64,000 nt of DNA from Escherichia phage Eps7. Each line of letters begins with the position of its first letter. Within the stretch, counting starts at the first letter, position 1. Both the position numbers and the translations under genes were made by a program. The stretch lies in the sequence record NC_010583.1. One strand, given 5' to 3'. The notes beneath the pieces are model-generated. The model was not told the origin of the DNA and made no database searches. It saw only the letters and a program-made list of their open reading frames with translations. Below are positions 7,442 to 38,172 of this stretch, one piece after another.

Positions 7442-8134
7442 TTATTTGTTAACGCGTACAAAGTATCCTTTATAGGCTCCCATAATAGAGTTACCTAAGA
7501 ATACTAGCCACATTGCTAGGATTGCATAAGATGCACCTGTAGATTGAGCAGTTACAAGCCAAATGTACACAGTACCAATGTTAATAGCAATCCAAATCAG
7601 CCATTGTTCAGCATATTGTTTGACCATAAGCCACATAGCAATCACACTACCTACCGCAGTAAATGCATCCAACATTGGGAATGGATCAGCCGTAGTAGCA
7701 AGGAAACTACCATAACCTAACGTGGCTACTGCTAAAATCCCTAGAGTCAGCAAAGCTTGAGCTTTTGTCAGAACTTTAGTTGGAACATCCGGCAGATTAC
7801 TTGGCTTATTTTTATGCCATAAGTACATTCCATAAAACTGCATAGGAACGTAGTATAGCAGGTTTAGTGCAGCGTTACCATAAAGATCTGCGTTTAAAGC
7901 TGTAATACCATATGTAAGAACACCCACTAAGCCCCAAATATAGTTGGAAACACGTCCTTTTGCAACCAGAATAACACAAACCACATTGGTTATTGCAGTA
8001 GCCCAATCTAGAGCTGTACCATTATAGTTTGCTAAACTAATAAAGGCGACTGCTATAAACAGCCACAGATATTCCAGAGGTTTCCAGTTTTTAAAGTCAT
8101 TTACGAGATAGTTAGTCATATTAAAACTCTCCAA
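7442..8134 (-). CDS. pnuC: nicotinamide riboside transporter PnuC-like membrane protein
   Basis: 230-aa polytopic membrane protein; GMYLWHK and VKQYAEQWLIWIAINI match PnuC signatures GWYAW and RKYVENWLLWVIINV. Confidence 0.65.
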   Translation of the reverse strand: MESFNMTNYLVNDFKNWKPLEYLWLFIAVAFISLANYNGTALDWATAITNVVCVILVAKGRVSNYIWGLVGVLTYGITALNADLYGNAALNLLYYVPMQFYGMYLWHKNKPSNLPDVPTKVLTKAQALLTLGILAVATLGYGSFLATTADPFPMLDAFTAVGSVIAMWLMVKQYAEQWLIWIAINIGTVYIWLVTAQSTGASYAILAMWLVFLGNSIMGAYKGYFVRVNK

Positions 8135-9176
8135 AGATAAAGTGATGAATCAGCCAGTCTACTGCGTTTACTGCTTCGTCCATACGAACTTTGTAGTCCG
8201 GAGAGTCGATGTAAACAGTACGCCCTTCAGGGAACTGATTTGGAAATTCTTTCTTCATCTGCTCGAACAGTTCAGAAGTAATTGAACGATCGGAGTTAAT
8301 ACGTAAACCATCATCTACCCACTTGACAGTAGGCGCTAGAACAATTACTAAATCGTAATGTTCTTCTTTTGCAATTGCTGTAACCACAGGGTTCTTACTA
8401 TGTTCATAAAGTCTGTGGTAGAACTCAGTAATAAAAGCATTTGTATCCACAAACATGATCTTATTTGCAGTACGTTTTGCTTCAAACTCTAGCTCTTTGT
8501 GTCTGAACGCAATTTTACTATAGTCTTCGCTGGTAAGCAGATTTTCGTTACCAACTAGATCAACTTCACAATACGTTCGGCCATATTCTTTTACCCACGA
8601 AGTGTTGTATAGCTTCGCAAGGTATTTTGTTAAAGTAGTCTTTCCTGAGCTTTCAGTCCCAATGATTACAACCTTACGCACGTAATCTTTACGAACTACG
8701 CTAGGAAGAAACTCCCAATACTTCATAAGATCATTACGAATCATTGTAGCTGAGATTGGAACACGAGTCCGATCAGAATCTACAATATAATGACCAAACT
8801 TCGGCAGATATTTCTTATATTCTGCATCATAGTCTAGTTCGCTAGAGAAAATGGTGATCTCAGGCAAATGTCCGTAATTTTCATTAAGGATTCTAGCATA
8901 TTCCGGCCAACCATTCGGATATTCAGGAATATCATCTTCAATAATGTACTCTACCGAAATGTGCTCAATATCCGCGTAAGTTTGTTCTAACCAACGAAGT
9001 CGATTCTTTAACTGTAATACTTCCTGATCACGTGTGTTCTGCTTATCCAGCCAACGATTATCATGACTAACTACAACAATAACTCGTTCACACATAGTTG
9101 CTGCTGTGTTTATTAGGTTAATATGACCACGCGTTAATGGCGCGAACTTACCAATTACTAGACCAGTCTTAATCAT
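8121..9176 (-). CDS. nadR: NadR-like bifunctional NMN adenylyltransferase / ribosylnicotinamide kinase
   Basis: N-terminal nucleotidyltransferase motif GKFAPLTRGH (HxGH), C-terminal P-loop GTESSGKTT; true start MIKTGL (track MREESN prefix is leader). Confidence 0.65.
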   Translation of the reverse strand: MIKTGLVIGKFAPLTRGHINLINTAATMCERVIVVVSHDNRWLDKQNTRDQEVLQLKNRLRWLEQTYADIEHISVEYIIEDDIPEYPNGWPEYARILNENYGHLPEITIFSSELDYDAEYKKYLPKFGHYIVDSDRTRVPISATMIRNDLMKYWEFLPSVVRKDYVRKVVIIGTESSGKTTLTKYLAKLYNTSWVKEYGRTYCEVDLVGNENLLTSEDYSKIAFRHKELEFEAKRTANKIMFVDTNAFITEFYHRLYEHSKNPVVTAIAKEEHYDLVIVLAPTVKWVDDGLRINSDRSITSELFEQMKKEFPNQFPEGRTVYIDSPDYKVRMDEAVNAVDWLIHHFIFGEF

Positions 9177-9202
9177 ATTTGATTCCTCTCTCAAATTTAT
9201 AA

Positions 9203-14612: not shown

Positions 14613-15385
14613 AATTATTTTCCTTTTGTTGTTCTCTCAAATTTATGAATATATTATACAGAATTTGGAGCTGAAAGCAAATCAAATTTTGATTTTTTTC
14701 GATCATGATGGCTACACAATAACTTTCAACTAAAGCATCGAATGCGGGATCATGTTTCACTGGATAGATTCCATAACGAATGGTATCCATCTTTTCCATT
14801 TTAGCTTTTGCCCAGCTAGCACCTTCGGCTTCTAGATCTTTATAGCTATAACCAGCTTGCATCCACTGATTACGGAAAGATCGAACGTTACCTAAGTTCC
14901 AGAATTTCCACGGAACTATTTCTTCATGGGTTCCGGCATGGAACGTATTTGCAGAGTAGATTGTCATATCAAACTCTGGGCCATTGCCGTAATACAGAGC
15001 ATTATCTCCTAGAGACAATTCCATAATGTTCTGAGCCATAGAGAAGGCAGCATAATTAGAGCCTACGTCATTAGTGCAGTGATGCTTACCATCACGGAAG
15101 GCAATCAGTTTAGGATTACGACCATTTAGAGCCTCCATAATATGGAGCGCAGATGGACTGTTTTTTAGCTTGATCCATCCAGAATGCAATAGTAGAGGCA
15201 GTTACCTTAGCACCCGCATTAAGCTGATCTTGAACGTCTAGAGTAACGAATACCAGATCAGGATCTTTATCAATTCCGTGCATCGCTACAAAAGCGAAAG
15301 AAGGCATTGCAATATGAGTAGTACCGCAATTTCCTGGAGTACCTAGAGATTCAATGTCCAGCATACCAAAGGGCTTGAATTTCAT
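14599..15385 (-). CDS. DEDDh-family 3'-5' exonuclease-like protein (frameshifted at T6 tract 15161-15166)
   Basis: Exo I-like LDIESLG, later H-x4-D (HDPAFD); two ORFs join when the A6 run on the coding strand is shortened to A5. Confidence 0.5.
14650..14695 (-). promoter_or_regulatory. T5-type early promoter cassette
   Basis: RC: -35 TTTGCT, -10 TATAAT, conserved leader. Confidence 0.5.
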
Positions 15386-18682: not shown

Positions 18683-19537
18683 TTACACCGTAAATGGATA
18701 TGCAATAGCAGGATGGTGTTCATAGCCACGAACAGTAAAATCATCCTTACTTACCCACGTTAATACATCATCCAAAGTTCTAATATTTGGATTGATTTCT
18801 AAAGTAGGAGGTGCAAAAGGTTCACGATCGAATTGCTTGTGCTCCATCAGAACATTATACTGATCTTCATAGATATGAAGATTAATAATCTTTTGACGAG
18901 CAATACCTGGCTTAAGACCTGTAATCTGTGCCATAATAGCTAGAAGTGCATAGCATTGCACCATATTAAATACTTGGCCCAGCAAGAAATCATTAGACCT
19001 CTGGAAAGAGTTTAGGTATAGTGTATCACCTAAAATAGAGAATTGATGGGTATGCATACACGGACGTAGGCATCCTTTACGAAATTCCCCACGGGTTCCA
19101 AAAGTTAAAATTTCTCCACGATCGTCAATCCCTCTTTTCAAATTATGATAGACTTTGGCTAACTGATCAAATACCATACCATCAGAATTAGTCCAATGAC
19201 GTCCTTGAACACCATAGACTCGTCCCATATCATCCTCGCCTTTACGGAATGGATTACCTAGCCAGGCAATATTTTCATTTGCATTAGCATTCCATGTATT
19301 AACACCAATAGCGCGGAATTGTGCTGCTGAGTCGTACCCACGGAGATATCCGATCATTTCCATTATTGCTTGTTTAGCAAATGCTTTACGAGTAGTTACT
19401 AGCGGCAGTTCTCCTGCTCCTACGTTAAAGGTAAAGTCTGCATCAATAATGGTTAGGCAACGAACCCCTGTTCTAGGATTCGTTACCCATACACCCTCTT
19501 CAAGAATACGTTTTCCAGTTTCAATATATTGCTTCAT
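18683..19537 (-). CDS. thyA: thymidylate synthase
   Basis: Conserved ThyA blocks: PLVTTRK, active-site region [11 protein letters not shown] (PCH), [14 protein letters not shown] and YALLAIMAQ. Confidence 0.8.
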
Positions 19538-20062
19538 TTAAATATCACCAATTCTTGTAAGAATGAAAGCGTTTTATCTGCATTCTGTCCTGCCACATAG
19601 TCCATTCTAGTTGCCATTGAATTATAAGTAATATGATGATGCAGATGTACATCAGCAGATAATGGTGTGGCTGAAGTAATAGTAGAGATATACGCCATAT
19701 CTAGATGATTTTTTGACATACATTTCAAGAAGCAGAGTTGCTCCCCCTAATACTACAGTTACCTCTTCCTTGAGAAAATCAGGCAGACGGTATCCAATGT
19801 TGCTTATGCGTGTAGCTGATCTTATAGAGTTCGGTAGTGGTCTATTTGCATAAATAAATAGGTCAGAATCTCCTAGTATTCTTTTTTGCAGAGTCTCAGG
19901 GAATGCTAACCAAGTTCCTGCTCCTACAATAATATTGTCAGGTGCCAGAGAATCCAATGTAGCATAGAAGATATCTAGTTCTTCTTTGAAAGAACCCCAG
20001 GGGAGCTTACCATTGAGGCCGAACTCCCCATTCGGCCCAGTTGCATAGATTGCTGCTATCAT
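19534..20062 (-). CDS. frd: dihydrofolate reductase (frameshifted at T6 tract 19709-19714)
   Basis: N-terminal [22 protein letters not shown] and [10 protein letters not shown]; continues ...[12 protein letters not shown] in the next frame when the A6 run is read as A5. Confidence 0.6.
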
Positions 20063-21811: not shown

Positions 21812-24204
21812 TTATAATTGACAACCACCAGATGCGCATCCAGCAGCAGCTTCCTCTCCTGCACCTCCACCATTTTCAGTGTTGAAGTTTGCATAATAAA
21901 AGGTTTTCCAACCGTACTTAACAGCAGTCATAAAGTCACGAACTACTACTGGGCCGGGAATGATTTCATTCTCGAACTTGGTGTAGTCATAGTACATATT
22001 CGTACTGATAGACTGGCTGAAGAATTTCTGCATGGTTGCTACCCATTTGATCCACTCGATACGATCTACATCATAAGCCAGTTTATAGCTCATTAATGTA
22101 TCCCAATCAGTTGCACCTGGAGCAATTGCAATTACTTTATTAACTGCACTACCCTTGATAGATACGATCTTACGGGGCGGTTCGATAGAGTTAGTAACAC
22201 CTAGCAGTACAGAGGAACTTTCACCTGGCATCTGAGCAGTCAGAACAGAGTTGCGCATACCATATTTCAGAATATCTGCACGCAGAGATTCCCAATCCAT
22301 TTCTAGACCTACAGTTACCAGTTCATCAACAGTTTTCTTGTACGTGTCGATTACCAGAGTTCCTTGCGAAGGCTTAGTACGATTAAACCAGTCACATGCA
22401 CCTTGTTCTTTAGCCAGACGTACAGAGGCTTTATGTAGGAAGTAGGACAGCTTTTCAGCTTCACGGTGAATCCAGTTACGTGCTTCAACACCTTCGTAAG
22501 CCAAACCTTCTGCTGCCATTGCACCTGCTGCGTTCATCAGACCAATACCAACGTTACGACGTTTCTTAGCCGTGTACTTCCATAGTTGGGAATGGGTAAT
22601 CCTGAATCTCGATGATTGTATCAACGAATTTCAGAAGGATGTAGCAAGTTTTCTCCCATTCAGCCAGAGATTCCATGCGGCCTAGTACAACACCACCTAA
22701 GTTACACAGAGATACTTCACCAATATCTTCTGGACGCATATCGTCTAACTGATCTTGGGTTTTATACAGTTCCGTAACGTGATGGAATGGACGGGTGGCT
22801 GAGTAATTCAACACAAAAGGGTTGGTCATACGAATCGGGTCAAGGAAGTTACCATGACGGTTAGATTCACCAATGTGATGAGCATACATACGCCCTGTTT
22901 CCATACGGATACGTAACCAAGTATCTAGGATTTCTTTTGCAGAGATTCTAGGAGCTGCTGGAATTGTTTTTCCTTCGTGGTCGATCTTTGTAAGAGAAGC
23001 CACACGTTTCTCCGCTGCCACGTAGATTTCTTCAAACTTAGCCTCATCTTCACCATAAAACGCTTCATGAACTTCTGGTGCGTAGAAGTAGGACATTAGC
23101 GTAATATCTTCGTTTTTCAGGTAACGTTTTAACAGAAGGTTGTTAAAGCTCAGAGAATAATCCATCTTATCGATTTTATTCTCGTCTGTAGCACGTTGCT
23201 GCTTAACCTGCATCAACTGAATGATTTCAGGATCGAAGTATGGATAAGACACAGTAGCAGAACCGCCACGGGTTTGCTGAGTGTTAGCTTTTACTGATCG
23301 GTCAATGTGTCGATAATATGGCAGTTTTCCGGAATGCGGGAATGCCCCATTTCGCACCGGATCAGCAATTGATCGGCTTTCAAGATGATACCCGATTCCC
23401 GCTCTGGCTGCGACCATTTTGAAGACGATGTGCTCGGCTGTGTCGATTGAATCCAGCGTGTCAGTGGAATCCACGAGACAGCAACTAGCAAATCCACGGT
23501 CACTAGAGCGCAGGCCAACCAGTGGCGGCGTAGGAACGTTGATTTTGTGGAGCGACATTGCATTGTAGAGGTCGATTGCATCTAGGATTGTCCAGTTAGG
23601 TTGAGATAACATCGCCATTGCCATACCCATGTAGGCAAACTGCGGGGTTTCATAAATTTCACCAGTTGCAATATTACGACGAGAATACTTGTCGAAGAAC
23701 TGTTTCAGTCCACCACTGGTGAATAAACGATCGCGATCATGATCAATAACTTGGTTCAGAGCGTCAAACTGATCATCGCTAATCCATGCACTCATGTCTT
23801 CCCAGCGCCAACACGAACCATATGATCGTGGAAGAAACGCAGAGAAGGGGTTCAAAGGAATCATATAGGCGTTTACGCATCTGCGCAAGACGTAATTCCT
23901 TTGCTACAGTATCATATGCTGGGTTGTCTTTGATAAGACCTTCAGCGGCTTTAATTAACACATCTTGGAGGGTATCGGAATCTACAACACCTTTTGGTAG
24001 ATTTTTCTGGGCAGACATAACGACGGCAGACCAACTTACGTCAGTTGCTTTACATGCCCATGCAGCCCAATCATTGAGTTTTTCAGGAGCAAAGTCCTGA
24101 ACAGTACCGTCACGTTTAATTACTTTTTCAATACTATGGCTCATTGGGGTTTCCTTTTTGTAGTTATCAGGATTTAGGAAATATTCTACTTTGTTTTGGG
24201 TCAT
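21812..24204 (-). CDS. nrdA: ribonucleotide reductase class Ia alpha subunit (three apparent frameshifts)
   Basis: ATP-cone N-terminus, catalytic core ...VIDHDRD..., ...RRNVGIGLMNAAG..., C-terminal CxxxGGC tail; fragments join at G4 tract 23847-23850 (restores FEPP), at 23799-23800 and near 22575-22581. Confidence 0.75.
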
Positions 24205-24511: not shown

Positions 24512-24811
24512 TTACACCTTCCCCATATCCTTAAAGATATCGTAGAATGCTTTAGACTCCGGTGAGCGAACGTTGTCGATCAGTTCGATCATAGAGAAAG
24601 GAGAGTTTTCGTACTTCTCATAGACTTCCATAAGAAGTGCTAGACCTGAATCACCCTTGATGTCTTTCTGAGCTATATCCCCACAGATAATTAAACGACA
24701 ATCTTGTCCTACACGAGTCAGGAGACAGATCATTGCTTCAACGGAGATATTCTGAGCTTCATCGACAATTACATAGGAGTTGTTGAATGTTGCCACGCTT
24801 TCTTGAACCAT
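24512..24811 (-). CDS. PhoH-like ATPase C-terminal-domain protein (short form)
   Basis: Walker B-like YVIVDEAQN and ...IICGDIAQKDIKG...SGL; Walker A absent; start may lie at 24845 if the T6 tract at 24823-24828 is an overcall. Confidence 0.45.
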   Translation of the reverse strand: MVQESVATFNNSYVIVDEAQNISVEAMICLLTRVGQDCRLIICGDIAQKDIKGDSGLALLMEVYEKYENSPFSMIELIDNVRSPESKAFYDIFKDMGKV

Positions 24812-24913
24812 TGCGGTTCTCTCTTTTTTGACGTGCTTTTCCCATAAATAACACTCCTATAGTGTACTTCGCTAACAGAGGATCAACAAAAAGATCTTGT
24901 TTATCAACTTACA

Positions 24914-27078: not shown

Positions 27079-27108
27079 AGCCAGATCGCTAGTCGATCTG
27101 GCTTTTAT
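27079..27108 (+). terminator. intrinsic terminator
   Basis: Hairpin agccagatcg...cgatctggct followed by TTTTATTTTATTT. Confidence 0.6.
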
Positions 27109-27171: not shown

Positions 27172-27453
27172 ATGAGCAAATTGCTTCCGAAAGTAGATGT
27201 TTCCCATCTTGGAGAGCCTAGTGAAGAACGTAAGGCTCTTGATTGGCTAGGTGGATTTGATTATCGTCGTGTTGTTGCAACATGGAATACTGGTAAGGTT
27301 AAAAAATTTCGTGTGCATTATGTTGGCAAAGATAAGTGGCTCTGGATCGATTATGAAGAATCGAAGGGATCTACTAAGGCTGTAAAAGTCTATCGTATGA
27401 ATGGGTATTATTATGCTCATTGTGATAAGAATGAATTTACAGTACAGAACTAA
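27172..27453 (+). CDS. hypothetical protein (93 aa)
   Basis: ORF starting MSKLLPKV after cassette RBS. Confidence 0.5.
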   Translation: MSKLLPKVDVSHLGEPSEERKALDWLGGFDYRRVVATWNTGKVKKFRVHYVGKDKWLWIDYEESKGSTKAVKVYRMNGYYYAHCDKNEFTVQN

Positions 27454-27462
27454 GGAACAAGA

Positions 27463-27829
27463 ATGAAGAACGTAAGACATCTTAAATATCGCTTAATTTA
27501 CAACGGACGTATGGAAACAGAAGATCTAGCTCAGCTAGCGATCAATTCAGATGAAGTTACGGTTCGTGCTTTATCTATTGAGAAGCTGCGTGCTTCTTAC
27601 GAAAATCGTATTATGGAACTGGAGGAGAAACTGTATGGACTTCTTGAATCAGAATCTAAAAAATAATCTAGAAAACATGCTTATGGAGCAGTGGAACTCT
27701 GGGTATAATGCTGGGGTGGCTACTTGTATTGCGGGGTTGGATATGCTTATTAAGCAAGAAAAGGTACGTCCAGAAGAAGCAATTCTACTCCAAAATATCA
27801 TCGAAGGATTCAAGCAAGGAATCGTATAA
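27463..27829 (+). CDS. hypothetical protein (about 121 aa; apparent frameshift at A6 tract 27658-27663)
   Basis: ORFs 27463-27666 and 27551-27829 join in-frame if the A6 run is read as A5. Confidence 0.4.
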
Positions 27830-28643
27830 TGCGTAGACTAATCGTTGTTAGTGGTGCAGGTTTGAGTGTAGATAGTGGTGTTCGTGCTTTCCGTACTGAT
27901 ACTGCTAGTGGTAAAGCGTTGTGGGATGATTATGACCTAGAAGAGGTATGTAATATTCATGCCTTTCGTGGTAATTTTACCATAAAACTCATATGTTTTA
28001 CAACAAACGTCGTGAAGAGTTACAAACTGTTGAACCTAACCTAGCTCATTTGCGTATTGGTGAATGGTATAAACGGTATCCAAATCAAGTGGTAAACCTT
28101 ACTACCAATGTTGATGATCTAATCGAACGTGCTGGAGTGCCGAGAGAAGATATACTCCATATTCATGGATATCTGAAAGAAATTATTGTAGAGCATGCGT
28201 TCGACCAGACACGTGATGTTATTGATATTGGGTATAGTTCTATTGATCCAGATGACTTTGATTGGGTTAAACCTAACGTTATCTTCTTTGGTGAGGTTGC
28301 TCCTGCCTATAAAACAATGTATGAGGTTTTTGATGGTATCACCAGTCATGATATGATCATCATTGTTGGGTGCTCTAACCAAGTAATTAACTTCTACTGG
28401 GAGCTATTTCCTGTTCTGAATCTTACTGCTGCAAAACTTATGGTAGTTAACTATTACGATAGTGCAGTAGCTATGGAACCAGGCTATCAGGGCATGACTC
28501 GTAGTGAAATGTATCAGTTAGAAGAACGTGGTATTCCTTACTGGAGTAAAGGTGCTGTGGATGCCTTTAGTGATCCCGATTTTATTGCTCGTGTGGAAGC
28601 TCATCTAGAAGGTAAACCCTATGTTCAACAAAAGCATGTGTGA
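27829..28643 (+). CDS. Sir2 (sirtuin)-like NAD-dependent protein (frameshifted at A4 tract 27984-27987)
   Basis: N-terminal GAGLSVDSGVRAFR (compare sirtuin GAGIS.ESGI..FR), central NVDDLIERAG...ILHIHG, later IIIVGCSN; two ORFs in adjacent frames. Confidence 0.55.
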
Positions 28644-28803
28644 TCTTTTAGTGTGGCCGGATGGTAGTTGGTGCTACCGTTTCGAATTTGCTACCGATGA
28701 TTTCTCATGGAAGAGTGATGATTTCTGTGTTATCTATGAAGATACAGCAGAATGGAAAGAGTTCCTTATTAAGGAGGGAGAATATGGTGAAGAAGATTTT
28801 TAA
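28621..28803 (+). CDS. hypothetical acidic protein (60 aa)
   Basis: ORF MFNKSMCDLLVWPDGSW...; overlaps Sir2-like stop. Confidence 0.4.
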   Translation: MFNKSMCDLLVWPDGSWCYRFEFATDDFSWKSDDFCVIYEDTAEWKEFLIKEGEYGEEDF

Positions 28804-28969
28804 GGGTATCTGGAAAGGTCTAGTATGGTTTGTCAACCTAATCGGTATGATTACCATTTATTCTCTGTTCCTATCTGTTATGTGGGGTAAAGGTGAATTG
28901 AAGGTTCCAGTTCCTTTTACTGATGAAGTTAAAGTCTGGACGTGGGATGCTACTGGTGGAAATAAGTAA
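28784..28969 (+). CDS. small membrane protein (61 aa)
   Basis: MVKKIFKGIWKGLVWFVNLIGMITIYSLFLSVMW hydrophobic helix; AAGGAGGGAG RBS. Confidence 0.45.
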   Translation: MVKKIFKGIWKGLVWFVNLIGMITIYSLFLSVMWGKGELKVPVPFTDEVKVWTWDATGGNK

Positions 28970-29462
28970 TACTCCTATAATTTTCCTGGATATTGATGGG
29001 GTGCTCAATTCGAGCATCTCTCACCATCATGCTCCAGATAGTGAAAAGCTATTCTTTGGTAGTGATTGGGTTTATAAGCCATTACTCCAGGCTTTTCAGA
29101 ACTTCCTTAAACCTTCTCCAATAATGATTGTTGGGGTATCTTCATGGTTTTCTGTACGAAACGAGATGGAGAACGTCCAGAGTATGACCGGGCTCGGTTT
29201 GATCGATCGTTTTCTTGGTACAACAGATTTTACTGGTGGCGGTTTATCTCGTGGTAATTCTGTCTTACGTTTCGTAGAAAAACATAAGCTCAAGCATTGG
29301 TGCGTCCTAGATGATGCTGGTGCTATGATGTATCAATTTCCTACTGTTATTGTAAATGGCAGGACTGGAATAAACCTTCAAGATTTAAATGCTATCAGCT
29401 ATATGCTGGAGTTTAGTCCAGATCTTGAAATGTGTAAGGCTCTTCAGAAACTCAAGGTGTAA
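28947..29462 (+). CDS. HAD-superfamily phosphatase-like protein
   Basis: HAD motif I IIFLDIDGVLNS; start uncertain. Confidence 0.5.
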   Translation: MLLVEISNTPIIFLDIDGVLNSSISHHHAPDSEKLFFGSDWVYKPLLQAFQNFLKPSPIMIVGVSSWFSVRNEMENVQSMTGLGLIDRFLGTTDFTGGGLSRGNSVLRFVEKHKLKHWCVLDDAGAMMYQFPTVIVNGRTGINLQDLNAISYMLEFSPDLEMCKALQKLKV

Positions 29463-29464
29463 AT

Positions 29465-29893
29465 ATGTTCGATAATCTTTTCATGAAAGAGGTAAACCCT
29501 ATGCTCCTCAACTTCTGGCGATCTCTCCCTGATGGTATGTATAATGAAACCATCAATCTGCTCAAGATTTGGTGTGAGAATAACGATATCTTCTTATCCT
29601 TTAAAGGCCCACTAGAGGAAGCTCCGTGTATTGGAGTTAGCGTGGATTTAGGGGAGGGAGTAGAAGAGATTGTAGACTGGAAAGAACTAGATGAAATGGG
29701 TCTGGTTTTTGCCTTGAACCATAAGCTGTTTATGCCTGCAAATCACCGTCTTATTGTAAACTATCGCACTGGTGAAGCTCCTGCTTTCCAGGTAAATGAA
29801 CGGGAGGGCTGGTCATATTCGCCCGAAGAAGTAAATGAGGGGATTCAGAAACTTCGTCGTTTCGGGTATATGATCCCAGGTTTAACTGCTTAA
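29465..29893 (+). CDS. hypothetical protein, paralog A (142 aa)
   Basis: Shares LVFALNHKLF.P...YMIPGL with the next gene (LIVALNFSIFHP...YVPGL). Confidence 0.55.
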   Translation: MFDNLFMKEVNPMLLNFWRSLPDGMYNETINLLKIWCENNDIFLSFKGPLEEAPCIGVSVDLGEGVEEIVDWKELDEMGLVFALNHKLFMPANHRLIVNYRTGEAPAFQVNEREGWSYSPEEVNEGIQKLRRFGYMIPGLTA

Positions 29894-29902
29894 GGAGGCA
29901 GA

Positions 29903-30298
29903 ATGGAACAAGTATTTTGGCGTCAGATAGATCCTAGTTTGGTAGAGCGTGCTGAGGGGCTCCTTGCACGTTGGTTGGGGGTTGACAAGGTTAGTGTAAC
30001 ATTTCCGTTTACTTCTGTAACAGACCCTAGTGTAGGTGTCTTTGTGGACGAAGATGAAGATGATGGTTGGGAAGCTGACTGGAATGAATTGTCCAGTATG
30101 GGCTTGATTGTTGCCCTCAACTTCTCTATATTCCACCCACGTGGTTTAGCTATTACACGTGATCCCGAAACCGGTGAATCCCCTTATCTTTTGCAAGTAG
30201 AAGATGATATTTGGGAGTACACCGAAGATATTCTCGAAGAAGCTAAAGGTCAATTAAATCGCATTGGGATCTATGTTCCAGGCCTAAATGATGATTGA
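29903..30298 (+). CDS. hypothetical protein, paralog B (131 aa)
   Basis: Tandem paralog of 29465-29893. Confidence 0.55.
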   Translation: MEQVFWRQIDPSLVERAEGLLARWLGVDKVSVTFPFTSVTDPSVGVFVDEDEDDGWEADWNELSSMGLIVALNFSIFHPRGLAITRDPETGESPYLLQVEDDIWEYTEDILEEAKGQLNRIGIYVPGLNDD

Positions 30299-30321: not shown

Positions 30322-30345
30322 ACCGAGTCATTTTGGCTCGGTTTT
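30322..30345 (+). terminator. intrinsic terminator
   Basis: Hairpin accgag...ctcggt followed by TTTTCTCT. Confidence 0.5.
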
Positions 30346-36219: not shown

Positions 36220-37191
36220 ATGACTAATGTAAAAGAATTTATTAAACGCTGTCAAGAAGCATATTATCAAGGTATGTCTTTAATCTCTGACGAAGAATAT
36301 GATCGTCTGATTAAAAGATTCCCACTAGAGGAAGAAATCGGACCGAAAGGTGATATTCCTCATTTGTATCGTATGTATTCTTTGCAGAAAGTCTATTACG
36401 GTCGCGGTGATAAAGCTCCATTCAATCCATTAGGTCAGGTTGAAACTGATAAGTTAGATGGTTGTGCGATTTCTCTATTATATATTAATGGTGAATTTGT
36501 TCAAGCGTTAACTCGTGGTAACGGTATTCTAGGGAATGATGTAACGCATAATGTTAAAATGCTGAACATCCCCAAAACTATTTCCCAAAAAGTACCAACT
36601 CAAATCACTGGTGAAGTTCTCATTACTAAAGAAGTAGAGAACAAACGTAACTACGCTTCGGGTGCTATTAACCTGAAAGACAGCGATGATTTCATCCAAC
36701 GTATTGGTGAAGGTGGTTTAATCTTCGTTGCATACGGTATCCAGTGTTCAGCGGAAACAGTCGGTATTACAGAAGCCTATTTAAAAGATATGCTTTGGCT
36801 AGAGAATGAGAACTTCTTGACAGTTGTTAATGTTCGTTCCTTTTTTAAATGGATTCCGACGGACGGTAAAGTTGTTCGTATTAACGACAACAATAAATTC
36901 TTCCGTGAAGGTTGGACTAATAAATTTCCTCGTGGTGCATTTGCTATTAAAGAGGATGAAGAAGGCGAAATTACCACACTTGTTAAAGTTGAATGGCAAG
37001 TAGGGGCTTCTGGTAAAGTAACTCCAGTTGGTTATTTCGAACCGGTGATTATTGATGATGCCACAATCGTTAAAGCAACTCTTAATAACGTTGATTATAT
37101 TAACGCTCTCGATTTAGAGATCGGTTGCCAGATTCGAGTGATTCGTGCTGGTGGTGTAATCCCTTGTATAGTAGAGCGAGTATACGACTAA
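36220..37191 (+). CDS. ligA: NAD-dependent DNA ligase, N-terminal subunit (adenylation + OB domains)
   Basis: Adenylation motif I ETDKLDGC (KxDG), LigA-like N-terminus ...EEYDRL...; 323 aa ending before the Zn-finger/HhH/BRCT part. Confidence 0.75.
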   Translation: MTNVKEFIKRCQEAYYQGMSLISDEEYDRLIKRFPLEEEIGPKGDIPHLYRMYSLQKVYYGRGDKAPFNPLGQVETDKLDGCAISLLYINGEFVQALTRGNGILGNDVTHNVKMLNIPKTISQKVPTQITGEVLITKEVENKRNYASGAINLKDSDDFIQRIGEGGLIFVAYGIQCSAETVGITEAYLKDMLWLENENFLTVVNVRSFFKWIPTDGKVVRINDNNKFFREGWTNKFPRGAFAIKEDEEGEITTLVKVEWQVGASGKVTPVGYFEPVIIDDATIVKATLNNVDYINALDLEIGCQIRVIRAGGVIPCIVERVYD

Positions 37192-37239
37192 TTCGTAACC
37201 CTTTGCTACCCGTTTACCATGTCGGAATTATAAAGTGGT

Positions 37240-37268
37240 TATTGACATTTTCGCCGCTTAGGTATATA
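37240..37268 (+). promoter_or_regulatory. sigma70-like promoter (TTGACA, 17 nt, TATACT) between ligase halves
   Basis: Near-consensus hexamers; followed by an 8-codon micro-ORF (MARVSKVS). Confidence 0.5.
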
Positions 37269-37334
37269 CTATTATCATTCAGTTGAGGGATAGAAAGTTA
37301 TGGCGAGGGTAAGCAAAGTTAGTTAAAATTGTAG

Positions 37335-37363
37335 TTGCTAAATGCTTAAATACTTGCTATAAT
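37335..37363 (+). promoter_or_regulatory. T5-type promoter (TTGCTA, 17 nt, TATAAT) for ligase C-terminal subunit
   Basis: Conserved leader ATTTATATAAATTGATAAGGAAGAAATTTG then ATG. Confidence 0.55.
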
Positions 37364-37393
37364 ATTTATATAAATTGATAAGGAAGAAATTTG

Positions 37394-38172
37394 ATGAAAA
37401 TCGAAATTCCAACACAATGTCCCTCTTGTGGTTCTAAGCTAGATCTTGTCAACGGGCAATTATTCTGTAGGAATAAGTCCAACTGTCCAGCGCAATCAAG
37501 TAAGTTAATCGAGAACTTCTGCACAAAAATGAAGTTAAAGGGCTTTGGCCCGAAAACTATTGAGAAGCTGGAGCTGACTAAGATCTCAGAACTGTTTTAC
37601 CTGACCGAAGAAGATTTGGTCGGAGCTGTGGGTAGCAAGGTTGCCGCTAAATTGATTAGCGAGTTAAATACAAGGTTCGCGGAGACATTGACTTTGGTTC
37701 AGTTCTCGGTTCTTTAGGAATTCCTCTTATTGGAGAGGTTGCAGCAAAGAAACTGTCCCAAAATTGCACTAGCTTCCACGATGTGAAGGCTGACGGCAAG
37801 GCTGGAGAAAATTACAAAACCTGGCTAAATTCCCCACAAGGCAAGGATGTTATTGAATTACCGTGGAAATTCTCAACTGGTATCCGAGGTGCTAAAGCTG
37901 ACATCATCATTACAGATGATTTAGTTGCCCAGCCAAATGGAATCACGGTCTGTATTACCGGATCTTTGCAAGATTTTGCAAATCGAACGGATGCAACAAA
38001 CTATTTAGAAAGTCTAGGGTATACGGTTAAGAAGTCCGTTACCAAAGACGTCAAATACCTAATCTGTGAGGATGAATCAAAACGTTCTTCCTCATCTTAT
38101 AAGAAAGCCGAAACGAATGGGATAGAAATCCTGTCGATTAAAGAACTATTGGAGAAAAATAATAATGTCTAA
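37394..38172 (+). CDS. ligB: NAD-dependent DNA ligase, C-terminal subunit (Zn finger, HhH, BRCT); frameshifted at T3 tract 37713-37715
   Basis: Zn-finger CPSCGSKL...[10 protein letters not shown], HhH ([14 protein letters not shown]), BRCT-like VCITGSL...; a T4 tract gives ...[13 protein letters not shown] matching LigA ...FLYALGIREVGE. Confidence 0.65.

What the first reader, a model, noticed from the sequence alone, without database searches (positions are those of the whole stretch)
27829..28643. Sir2 (sirtuin)-like protein encoded by the phage
The N-terminal GAGLSVDSGVRAFR and the central NVDDL...HIHG match sirtuin NAD-binding motifs. Sir2 domains are best known in phage biology as NAD-consuming defence effectors, so a phage-borne copy next to an NAD+ salvage pair elsewhere in the window is notable. 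It could be a deacylase, an ADP-ribosyltransferase acting on host targets, or a decoy. The gene is split at an A4 tract that looks like a homopolymer undercall.
Basis: partly seen in the sequence, partly recalled or inferred. Interest (0 to 1): 0.5.

Follow-up and report, generated by a model that had tools for sequence, protein, structure and literature searches.

The report
Known T5-type phage sirtuin, frameshifted
This is the well-annotated Sir2/CobB-like gene carried by T5-like phages, broken here by a missing T. It is an ordinary family member whose real substrate has never been tested: damaged RNA ends and acylated proteins are the two leading candidates.

Summary
The window comes from a T5-like phage (Epseptimavirus; about 98% identical to PSa2, bombadil and PMBT27). 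Positions 27829-28643 are the ortholog of T5 gene T5.102 (PHROG 2162, "Sir2"). Homologs occur in about 1,000 phage records.

The frame-repaired 271-aa protein matches Pfam SIR2 (E 7.8e-23). A near-identical intact homolog folds with pLDDT 91. Its closest structures are E. coli CobB, then Sir2Af1 and Sirt5. The catalytic His, the GAGxS and NVD motifs and the class III FYxxRR motif are invariant. All four zinc-binding Cys are missing. It has no PADLOC defence hit, so it is not a defence-type NADase Sir2.

The split is real in the sequence, but it lies in a T run (T4 at 27975-27978; T5 in about 196 of 198 relatives), not in the A4 tract. Only PSa2 shares it. The window also has frameshifts in NrdA, DHFR, LigB and other genes, so the assembly is error-prone.

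The gene shares a terminator-bounded operon with a HAD_SAK_2 RNA-repair phosphatase. In rV5- and Mydo-like phages the ortholog follows RNA ligase, cREC and a kinase. This reproduces a published prediction (Iyer et al. 2022) of Tpt1-like RNA 2'-phosphate removal. Protein deacylation is not excluded. I found no experiments. Already known; low-to-moderate interest.

The parts
27829..28044 (+). 5' part of the sirtuin gene. The ORF is 71 aa. True coding sequence runs to about 27978 (MRRLIVVSGAGLSVDSGVRAFR...HAFRGNF); the remainder is out-of-frame read-through.
   Evidence: The start overlaps the stop of the upstream ORF (TAATG), and an AAGGA Shine-Dalgarno-like sequence lies upstream.
27975..27978 (+). 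T4 run, the site of the 1-nt deletion that breaks the frame. Intact relatives have T5 here (AAT TTT TAC = N-F-Y).
   Evidence: Alignments. The 71-nt survey of 198 phage records shows only PSa2 matching without a gap.
27993..28643 (+). 3' part of the sirtuin gene. The ORF is 216 aa from an internal Met; the true frame resumes at 27978 (YHKTHMFYNKRR...). It carries FYxxRR, TTNVDD, HIHG, VIFFGE and VGCSNQVINF.
   Evidence: No Shine-Dalgarno sequence precedes ATG 27993. The exact 216-aa product is otherwise found only in PSa2.
28923..29462 (+). HAD_SAK_2 phosphatase, the 'Swiss Army Knife' RNA-repair HAD domain. It is the ortholog of T5.105. The start annotated in relatives corresponds to 28947.
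   Evidence: Pfam PF18143, E 2.6e-19, 70.4 bits against a cut-off of 27.5. It lies within 1.3 kb downstream of the sirtuin in 29 of 54 IMG/VR loci. In Erwinia phage KEY it is upstream of the sirtuin.
27172..27829 (+). Three small upstream ORFs of the same operon (27172..27453, 27463..27666, 27635..27829). Function unknown.
   Evidence: no Pfam hit. ORF 27635..27829 is phrog_5827, function unknown.
28621..28969 (+). Two small ORFs between the sirtuin and the HAD gene (28621..28803, 28784..28969). Function unknown.
   Evidence: phrog_5116 and phrog_11166, both unknown.
29465..30298 (+). Two paralogous DUF7415 genes (29465..29893, 29903..30298) that end the operon.
   Evidence: Pfam PF24187, E 6.8e-37 and 3.1e-28. 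Both are conserved next to HAD_SAK_2 in T5-like loci.
27079..27103 (+). Terminator-like hairpin after nrdD. It marks the upstream boundary of the sirtuin operon.
   Evidence: 10-bp stem followed by a T run. T5 has a terminator and a promoter annotated at the equivalent place.
30322..30342 (+). Terminator-like hairpin that closes the sirtuin/HAD/DUF7415 operon.
   Evidence: T5 has a terminator annotated after T5.107.
7442..9194 (-). PnuC-like nicotinamide riboside transporter (7442..8134) and NadR-like NMN adenylyltransferase/kinase (8121..9194). This is the 'NAD+ salvage pair'.
   Evidence: Pfam NMN_transporter E 3.1e-43; AAA_28 E 2.1e-31 plus CTP_transf_like E 3.7e-07. PSa2 and bombadil annotate these genes the same way.
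36220..38172 (+). NAD+-dependent DNA ligase in two subunits, A (36220..37191) and B. In this window B is itself frameshifted (37391..37717 plus 37783..38172). It is another NAD+ consumer in this phage.

Best explanation
**Shown**
- Window 27829-28643 is the T5.102-type phage sirtuin gene (PHROG 2162).
- The intact protein in relatives (271 aa) has a CobB/Sirt5-like (class III-like) sirtuin fold. It has a complete NAD+ pocket, the catalytic His and the anion-binding Tyr/Arg pair (FYxxRR).
- It has lost all four zinc-ligand Cys. A confidently predicted cysteine-free beta-hairpin occupies that place.
- It is transcribed in a terminator-bounded operon with a HAD_SAK_2 RNA-end phosphatase.
- In this window the frame is broken by the loss of one T from a T5 run. 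As written, this copy encodes two non-functional fragments: there is no ribosome-binding site before the second ORF and no canonical slippery site.

**Inferred**
- The deletion is probably a real lesion inherited together with PSa2 (about 65-70%) rather than a sequencing error.
- The intact enzyme uses NAD+, expels nicotinamide and transfers ADP-ribose to an anionic oxygen nucleophile.
- The most likely physiological nucleophile is a 2'-phosphate left at healed RNA (tRNA) breaks. The His-activated ribose 2''-OH would then displace the phosphate, giving RNA 2'-OH plus ADP-ribose-1'',2''-cyclic phosphate. This parallels Tpt1/KptA chemistry and the two steps of sirtuin deacylation.
- The neighbouring HAD phosphatase would heal the RNA ends or process the by-product.
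- The phage PnuC-NadR pair would replenish the NAD+ spent by this enzyme and by the phage NAD+-dependent DNA ligase.

The stated confidence refers to the RNA-repair role. Identity as a T5.102-family class III-like sirtuin is about 0.97.
For: **Identity**
- Pfam SIR2, E 7.8e-23.
- phrog_2162, E 2e-115, full length.
- 84% identity to T5.102.
- CobB 1S5P by profile search, E 2.7e-27.
- AF2 model with pLDDT 91.1 and pTM 0.88.
- Foldseek top hits are CobB (target TM-score 0.81-0.83), then Sir2Af1 and Sirt5.
- Invariant across 40 homologs: G9-A10-G11, F21-R22, F57-Y58, R61-R62, N94-V95-D96, H113-G114, F153-F154-E156, G181, S183 and N208.

**Frameshift**
- T4 against T5.
- Only PSa2 shares it among 198 records.
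- PSa2 has no other frameshifted gene across 50 kb when compared with bombadil.
- The window and PSa2 are 100% identical from 27946 to 28643.

**RNA-repair link**
- HAD_SAK_2 lies 280 nt downstream in the same operon.
- The linkage survives a change of gene order in Erwinia phage KEY (HAD-x-SIR2).
- The order RNA_lig_T4_1, cREC, AAA_33 kinase, SIR2, with a metallophosphoesterase nearby, occurs in Raoultella phage Ro1, in rV5-like contigs, in Bas59 and in FBKp34.
- 121Q has a Sir2-Nudix pair.
- Of 54 IMG/VR loci, 29 have HAD_SAK_2 and 12 have the RNA ligase/kinase/phosphoesterase set within about 3 kb.
- The same inference was published by Iyer et al. 2022 (PMC9503650, section 3.7.3).

**Chemistry**
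The parallel between the sirtuin and Tpt1 two-step mechanisms rests on established enzymology, not on a test done here.
Against: - No experiment exists for any member of this phage clade (literature searches).
- Every residue needed for lysine deacylation is conserved. The nearest relatives by sequence and structure are all protein deacylases, so nothing in the sequence itself points to RNA.
- Guilt by association rests on only three or four phage lineages, not on many independent events. Between 12 and 13 of the 54 loci show no such neighbour.
- I did not find an RNA ligase in the T5-like loci I examined.
- KVP40-like phages carry the homolog without obvious RNA-repair neighbours.
- The window assembly has many other frameshifts, so the T4 run could still be an error.
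Confidence: 0.45

Rival explanations
1. The intact enzyme is a conventional CobB-like NAD+-dependent protein lysine deacylase (deacetylase, desuccinylase or demalonylase). The phage would use it to re-programme host or phage proteins during early infection, for example by re-activating acetyl-CoA synthetase or other acylated enzymes. Nicotinamide and NAD+ would be recycled through phage or host salvage.
For: - The closest sequence and structure relatives are CobB, Sir2Af1 and Sirt5.
- NCBIfam CobB/deacylase models are the only NCBIfam hits.
- The catalytic His, the F of the FGE loop and the class III Tyr/Arg pair that binds succinyl or malonyl carboxylates are invariant.
- This hypothesis was published for the KVP40-like homologs, where loss of zinc was also noted (PMC5107563).
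Against: - NCBIfam scores (38-98 bits) are far below the equivalog/subfamily cut-offs (221-395), so it is not a CobB equivalog.
- The zinc-binding Cys4 module is gone.
- Substrate-groove motifs have diverged. TQNID is now TTNVD, the Gly of FGE is variable, and GTSxxVYP is now GCSNQVIN.
- The conserved linkage is to RNA end-healing and sealing genes, not to metabolic or acetyltransferase genes.
- The host already supplies CobB.
Confidence: 0.35
2. The protein is an NAD+-consuming effector, anti-defence factor or decoy. It could be a free NADase used for host shut-off. It could be a protein ADP-ribosyltransferase like SirTM. It could be a mimic that titrates activators of host Sir2-based defences.
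For: - Sirtuin chemistry allows NAD+ hydrolysis and ADP-ribosylation.
- The phage carries PnuC-NadR, which could buffer NAD+ loss. This pair has been hypothesised to be an NAD+ reconstitution pathway.
Against: - No PADLOC defence model matches.
- No defence Sir2 (ThsA, DSR2, SIR2-HerA) appears among the top 50 structural matches.
- No Macro, NADAR or ARG partner lies in the operon, unlike SirTM systems.
- A decoy would not need an invariant catalytic His and a full NAD pocket across about 50%-diverged homologs.
- A phage that depends on an NAD+-dependent DNA ligase is unlikely to burn NAD+ wholesale.
Confidence: 0.08
3. On the split only: the T4 run is a sequencing or assembly artefact (a homopolymer miscall), and the phage actually carries an intact 271-aa gene.
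For: - The window has frameshifts, relative to both PSa2 and bombadil, in several conserved genes. These are NrdA (three sites), DHFR, a metallopeptidase, ligase subunit B and PhoH. Several lie in T runs.
- About 196 of 198 related records have T5 at this site.
Against: - The identical deletion is present in PSa2. PSa2 is a different genome (about 98% identical) with no other frameshifted gene across 50 kb.
- The window and PSa2 are identical across the 3' 700 nt of the gene, so inheritance of a real lesion explains the shared T4 run without a coincidence.
- Two independent errors at the same base are improbable unless the error is systematic or the assembly was reference-guided.
Confidence: 0.33

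Closest known systems
Phage T5 gene T5.102 (YP_006930.1), PHROG 2162 'Sir2 (NAD-dependent deacetylase)'
   Same: It is the ortholog: 84% amino-acid identity over 267 of 271 residues. It occupies the same operon position after nrdD, with the same downstream HAD_SAK_2 (T5.105) and DUF7415 genes.
   Different: The window copy (and PSa2) lacks one T in the T run and is split. T5 reads AAC TTT TAT at this site, which makes a shorter run.
E. coli CobB (PDB 1S5P, 6RXJ) and other class III sirtuins (Sirt5, Sir2Af1)
   Same: - Rossmann plus small-domain sirtuin fold; Foldseek TM-score normalised to the target is 0.81-0.83.
- Shared GAGxS, FR, N-x-D and HG motifs.
- The class III FYxxRR anion-binding motif is present.
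   Different: - Only about 23% identity.
- Scores are below every NCBIfam CobB cut-off.
- All four zinc-binding Cys are lost.
- TQNID is now TTNVD, the Gly of FGE is not conserved, and VYP is now VIN.
- The T5-like alleles have an extra 17-residue loop (208-224).
Tpt1/KptA RNA 2'-phosphotransferase
   Same: The proposed job is the same: NAD+-dependent removal of an RNA 2'-phosphate through an ADP-ribosylated intermediate. It also shares gene-neighbourhood partners: RNA ligase, kinase, phosphoesterases, Nudix and HAD.
   Different: The fold is unrelated (an ART fold against a sirtuin Rossmann fold). There is no homology. The functional equivalence is a published prediction and has not been demonstrated.
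Defence-associated SIR2 NADases (ThsA, DSR1/2, SIR2-HerA, SIR2-APAZ)
   Same: They belong to the Sir2 superfamily and bind NAD+. Many also lack the zinc ribbon.
   Different: - No PADLOC model matches.
- They are not among the top 50 structural neighbours.
- The phage protein is a stand-alone 271-aa protein with no sensor domain or partner.
- It is encoded by a lytic phage in an early metabolic operon.
SirTM (class M, macrodomain-linked ADP-ribosylating sirtuins)
   Same: Both are sirtuins proposed to transfer ADP-ribose rather than to deacylate.
   Different: No macrodomain gene is adjacent. The class III motifs are retained. Iyer et al. place the phage clade apart from the sirtuin-Macro systems.

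Membership tests
Sir2/sirtuin family (Pfam PF02146) | Profile match above the gathering threshold across the catalytic core | tested here: met
   81.8 bits against a cut-off of 24, covering positions 1-178 of 180, E 7.8e-23 for the frame-repaired protein.
Sir2/sirtuin family (Pfam PF02146) | Catalytic His in the HG motif, plus the NAD-binding GAGxS, FR and N-x-D motifs | tested here: met
   H113-G114, G9-A10-G11, F21-R22 and N94-V95-D96 are invariant in 40 homologs. They align to the CobB equivalents.
Sir2/sirtuin family (Pfam PF02146) | Rossmann-type sirtuin fold | tested here: met
   AF2 model with pLDDT 91.1 and pTM 0.88. Foldseek against CobB gives E 3e-16 and TM-score 0.71 by query / 0.81-0.83 by target. 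The model is of P0001, which is 99% identical to the repaired window protein.
Canonical sirtuin small domain | Cys4 zinc-ribbon ligands (CxxC...CxxC) between the HG and FGE motifs | tested here: not met
   No Cys lies between G114 and K148. No conserved Cys occurs in this segment in 36-40 homologs. CobB has Cys at the aligned positions. The model shows a beta-hairpin (strands 114-122 and 129-133) with pLDDT of about 96 in this place.
Class III sirtuins (CobB/Sirt5 type) | Tyr and Arg (YxxR) in the helical module, which bind an acidic acyl group | tested here: met
   F57-Y58-N-K-R61-R62 is invariant. It aligns to CobB FYNARRR.
CobB equivalog (NCBIfam NF040867, NF001752-5) | Score above the curated equivalog/subfamily cut-off | tested here: not met
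   The best score is 97.5 bits against a cut-off of 243; other hits score 38-85 bits against cut-offs of 221-395.
Protein lysine deacylase activity | NAD+-dependent removal of acyl groups from lysine | not testable with these tools
   This needs a biochemical assay. No published assay for this clade was found.
Defence-type SIR2 NADase (Thoeris ThsA, DSR, SIR2-HerA, pAgo-SIR2) | Match to defence-system SIR2 models, with fusion or linkage to a sensor or partner | tested here: not met
   PADLOC gives 0 hits at E <= 0.01. There are no SLOG, HerA, pAgo or TIR neighbours. The top 50 structural neighbours are deacylases.
SirTM (macrodomain-linked ADP-ribosylating sirtuin) | An operonic Macro domain partner | tested here: not met
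   No Macro domain occurs in any ORF of the operon (Pfam; PHROGs).
Phage sirtuin RNA-repair clade (Iyer et al. 2022, 'SP15 type') | Conserved neighbourhood with a HAD 'Swiss Army Knife' phosphatase, or with RNA ligase, cREC and kinase in other phages | tested here: met
   HAD_SAK_2 lies 280 nt downstream. 29 of 54 IMG/VR loci have HAD_SAK_2 and 12 of 54 have the RNA ligase/kinase/phosphoesterase set. Individual loci are shown.
Phage sirtuin RNA-repair clade (Iyer et al. 2022, 'SP15 type') | Tpt1-like 2'-phosphate removal from RNA | not testable with these tools
   This is a prediction only. It requires an enzymatic assay with 2'-PO4 RNA.

The most novel reading that the evidence does not exclude
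The zinc-less T5.102-type sirtuins may be nucleic-acid enzymes. They would use NAD+ to remove 2'-phosphates from healed tRNA or mRNA breaks, acting as a sirtuin-fold analogue of Tpt1/KptA. The class III Tyr/Arg 'succinyl' pocket would be re-used to bind phosphate. Together with HAD_SAK_2 (in T5-like phages) or RNA ligase, cREC and kinase (in rV5- and Mydo-like phages), they would form a phage counter-measure to host anticodon nucleases, fuelled by PnuC-NadR NAD+ salvage. This would be the first sirtuin shown to act on RNA. The idea itself was published as a prediction in 2022, so only the demonstration would be new.
Probability: 0.35. Interest if true: 0.7.

Novelty: already known. Interest (0 to 1): 0.25.

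Why it matters
As a finding it adds little. The gene has been annotated as Sir2 in T5 since the genome was published. It sits in PHROG 2162, has homologs in about 2% of sequenced phage records, and has been analysed in two papers.

What remains open is its substrate, which is directly testable. About 1,000 sequenced phages, including the model phage T5 and many BASEL and therapeutic isolates, carry a catalytically intact, zinc-less, CobB-like sirtuin that nobody appears to have assayed. If it repairs RNA, that would extend sirtuin chemistry to nucleic acids. It would also add an NAD+-dependent arm to phage counter-defence against tRNA-cleaving immunity. If it is a deacylase, it would be a clear case of a phage editing the host acyl-proteome.

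In practical terms, the window shows that this assembly has many frameshifts, so its gene calls should be treated with caution.

Tried and rejected
1. **Programmed -1 frameshift.** A tRNA-Phe slip on U_UUU would regenerate exactly the wild-type N-F-Y sequence. I rejected this as a designed feature for four reasons. There is no X_XXY_YYZ heptamer in the zero frame. The -1 codon for the upstream tRNA is UAA. The run is only 4 nt. About 196 of 198 relatives simply have T5.
2. **A deliberate two-subunit sirtuin.** Rejected. There is no Shine-Dalgarno sequence before ATG 27993, and the 5' fragment alone falls below the Pfam threshold.
3. **MET_P1-197_41 as a second independent carrier of the split.** Rejected. 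Its breaks are at other homopolymers, and the record is full of 1-nt deletions.
4. **Listing window indels directly from blastn.** The output was too noisy, with compensating pairs in divergent patches. I replaced it with a frame-consistency test by tblastn.
5. They worked after I repeated the homolog search with the exact window ORF.
6. **Pattern scans for the two alleles.** Exact-pattern scans in IMG/VR found 0 copies of T4 and 2 of T5. JGI metagenomes held 0 of each. These scans say nothing about whether T4 is real.
7. **Defence-Sir2, decoy and SirTM readings.** No support was found for any of them.
8. **Conserved basic residues as a sign of an RNA-binding surface.** The invariant Arg and Lys residues are all shared with CobB, so they do not discriminate.
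Full report
**What is at the coordinates**

On the + strand, ORF 27829..28044 (71 aa) begins MRRLIVVSGAGLSVDSGVRAFR. The overlapping ORF 27993..28643 (216 aa) carries FYNKRR, TTNVDDL, HIHG, VIFFGE and VGCSNQVINF. Joined in the way relatives read, the 271-aa product matches Pfam SIR2 over positions 1-178 of 180 (E 7.8e-23, 81.8 bits, cut-off 24). The 3' ORF alone scores 54.5 bits. The 5' ORF alone scores 17.4 bits, which is below the cut-off. The Sir2 call is correct.

**Source organism**

The window is from a T5-like phage (Demerecviridae, Epseptimavirus). A 24-kb stretch is 97-98% identical to Escherichia phage PSa2 and to Salmonella phages SB6, bombadil and PMBT27. The 1.6 kb around the gene matches 436 phage records.

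**The frameshift**

- PMBT27 and bombadil annotate one intact 816-nt, 271-aa gene. PSa2 annotates the same two fragments as the window.
- Alignment places the lesion in a T run. Intact genomes read GGT AAT TTT TAC CAT (T5). The window and PSa2 read GGTAATTTTACCAT (T4, window 27975-27978).
- In a 71-nt survey of 198 records, only PSa2 matched without a gap.
- A third split record, MET_P1-197_41, is broken at other homopolymers and is full of 1-nt deletions.
- The window and PSa2 differ in this gene by only 8 nt, all within 27912-27945, and are identical from 27946 to 28643. The exact 216-aa product is on record only from PSa2.
- A frame-consistency test shows that PSa2 has no other frameshifted gene across about 50 kb relative to bombadil. 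The window has breaks in NrdA (three sites), PhoH, a metallopeptidase, DHFR and ligase subunit B relative to both genomes.

The window assembly is therefore error-prone. This particular lesion, however, is shared with an otherwise frameshift-free, distinct genome. I judge a real, inherited 1-nt deletion more likely (about two in three) than two coincident miscalls. Only the reads can settle it.

Scans for either allele in IMG/VR and in JGI metagenomes were uninformative. I considered and rejected a programmed -1 shift and a two-subunit design. There is no slippery heptamer, no ribosome-binding site before ATG 27993, and nearly all relatives have T5.

**What kind of sirtuin it is**

- Homologs are abundant and come from phages. 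At E <= 1e-5, 169 protein clusters were found, typically on 100-150 kb contigs. tblastn hits 1,010 phage records: T5 itself (T5.102, 84% identity), rV5-like, Mydo-like and phi92-like phages, KVP40 (34%) and the jumbo phage 121Q.
- It is PHROG 2162 'Sir2', E 2e-115.
- A profile of 36 homologs finds E. coli CobB (1S5P) best among solved structures (E 2.7e-27), followed by Sir2Af1/2, Sirt5 and Sir2Tm.
- An AlphaFold2 model of P0001 (99% identical to the repaired window protein), built with 40 homologs, has pLDDT 91.1 and pTM 0.88. Foldseek against the PDB returns CobB chains first (TM-score 0.81-0.83 by target), then Sir2Af1 and Sirt5. No defence Sir2 appears in the top 50.
- Invariant residues include GAG, FR, FY-x-x-RR (the class III Tyr/Arg pair), NVD, HG (the catalytic His113), FF-x-E, G-x-S and N208.

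Departures from canonical sirtuins:

- None of the four zinc-ligand Cys is present. The model puts a confident beta-hairpin (strands 114-122 and 129-133) in that place.
- TQNID has become TTNVD.
- The Gly of FGE varies.
- GTSxxVYP has become GCSNQVIN.
- The T5-type alleles carry an extra loop at 208-224.

NCBIfam CobB models hit only at 38-98 bits against cut-offs of 221-395, so it is not a CobB equivalog. PADLOC gives no hit.

**Genomic context**

- A consensus sigma-70 promoter precedes nrdD, and a strong hairpin terminator follows it (27079-27103).
- The next unit runs to a second terminator at 30322-30342. It contains three small ORFs, the sirtuin, two small ORFs, a HAD_SAK_2 protein (Pfam PF18143, E 2.6e-19) and two DUF7415 paralogs. 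T5 has the same layout (T5.100-T5.107) with annotated promoters and terminators.
- PnuC and NadR lie about 19 kb away on the other strand.
- The phage also encodes a two-subunit NAD+-dependent DNA ligase. Together the window carries at least four NAD+-related functions.
- The PnuC-NadR operon of T5-like BASEL phages has been proposed, but not tested, as an NAD+ reconstitution route (bioRxiv 10.1101/2024.02.11.579819).

**Neighbourhoods of homologs**

- Erwinia phage KEY (T5-like) has HAD_SAK_2-x-SIR2, the reverse order.
- Raoultella phage Ro1 has metallophosphoesterase ... RNA_lig_T4_1, cREC, AAA_33 kinase, SIR2, ATP-dependent DNA ligase.
- rV5-like contigs and Bas59 have RNA ligase, cREC and SIR2, with a divergent kinase and phosphoesterase.
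- FBKp34 is similar.
- 121Q has SIR2 followed by Nudix.
- Among 54 IMG/VR loci, 29 have HAD_SAK_2 within 1.3 kb. Twelve have RNA ligase, kinase and phosphoesterase within about 3.3 kb. Twelve to 13 have neither at tblastn E <= 1e-4.
- These counts cover only a few lineages, not independent events.

**Published views**

- Iyer, Burroughs, Anantharaman and Aravind (Viruses 2022, PMC9503650, section 3.7.3) describe this clade, including the 'Escherichia phage SP15' type with the HAD partner. They predict a KptA/Tpt1-like role in removing RNA 2'-phosphates.
- Skliros et al. (2016, PMC5107563) modelled the KVP40-type homolog on CobB and noted the missing zinc site. They listed T5 and SPC35 among the carriers and proposed deacetylation of acetyl-CoA synthetase.
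- I found no biochemical or genetic test of any member.

**Mechanism**

*Shown.* The protein is a catalytically complete, zinc-less, class III-like sirtuin in an early operon with an RNA-end phosphatase.

*Inferred.* It binds NAD+, releases nicotinamide and forms a C1''-O adduct with an anionic oxygen. The His-activated 2''-OH then resolves the adduct. With an acyl-lysine this is deacylation. With an RNA 2'-phosphate it is the Tpt1 reaction. The two chemistries are step-for-step parallel according to established enzymology.

The gene neighbourhoods tip me toward RNA (0.45) over protein deacylation (0.35). An NADase, ADP-ribosyltransferase or decoy role is unlikely (0.08).

**Verdict**

The 'Sir2' interpretation is right. 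The defence-effector or decoy framing is unsupported. The gene is a known, widely annotated phage family, so novelty is 'already known' and interest is modest. The residual value is that its substrate has never been tested.

Noticed in passing
window 21815-24204 (-), 24515-24845 (-), 14695-15385 (-), 19537-20062 (-), 37391-38172 (+): Relative to both PSa2 and bombadil, the window has frameshifts in several conserved genes. These are NrdA (three shifts near 23849, 23804 and 22577), PhoH (also missing about aa 20-158), a metallopeptidase (T run near 15161), DHFR (T run near 19709) and NAD-ligase subunit B (near 37672). The assembly looks error-prone, so gene calls across the window need caution.
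   Followed up: partly
window 28923-29462 (+); T5.105; bombadil HWD22_gp062: RefSeq labels the HAD_SAK_2 phosphatase 'Sir2 (NAD-dependent deacetylase)'. The name appears to come from phrog_18062, which this HAD protein hits at E 1.6e-54. Pfam places it in PF18143 (HAD_SAK_2). This explains why some records seem to carry two Sir2 genes.
   Followed up: yes
window 27635-27829 (+): PSa2 annotates the 64-aa ORF just upstream of the sirtuin as 'nicotinamide mononucleotide transporter'. It has no Pfam hit and belongs to phrog_5827 (function unknown). The label is almost certainly an annotation error.
   Followed up: yes
window 7442-9194 (-) and 36220-38172 (+): Besides the sirtuin, the phage encodes PnuC, NadR and a two-subunit NAD+-dependent DNA ligase. 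NadR's NMN adenylyltransferase domain could recycle the NMN released by the ligase. The salvage pair may therefore serve the ligase at least as much as the sirtuin.
   Followed up: partly
related loci, e.g. H125-H133 (phagemcphageface, falkor, S113) versus H103-H113: Two very different sirtuin alleles circulate within the same genus. One is 85-99% identical to the window protein. The other is about 52% identical, with a roughly 30-residue insertion after the HAF-x-x-GF segment. Both keep the HAD_SAK_2 neighbour. This suggests allelic replacement by recombination.
   Followed up: partly
window 29465-30298 (+): Two tandem DUF7415 paralogs always follow HAD_SAK_2 in T5-like loci and close the operon. 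Their function is unknown. They could be further components of the sirtuin/HAD module.
   Followed up: no
L013 (Raoultella phage Ro1) 1-209 and 12608-12777; L011 (FBKp34) 1-6: In Mydo-like and related phages, other NAD/ADP-ribose genes lie within about 6 kb of the RNA-ligase/sirtuin cluster. These are a PRPP-synthetase-like gene, a NADAR domain protein and a PnuC-like transporter.
   Followed up: no
window 27912-27945: All 8 differences between the window and PSa2 sirtuin genes fall within a 34-nt patch. In that patch the window matches PMBT27 and bombadil. It looks like a short recombination or gene-conversion tract immediately upstream of the shared T4 lesion.
   Followed up: partly
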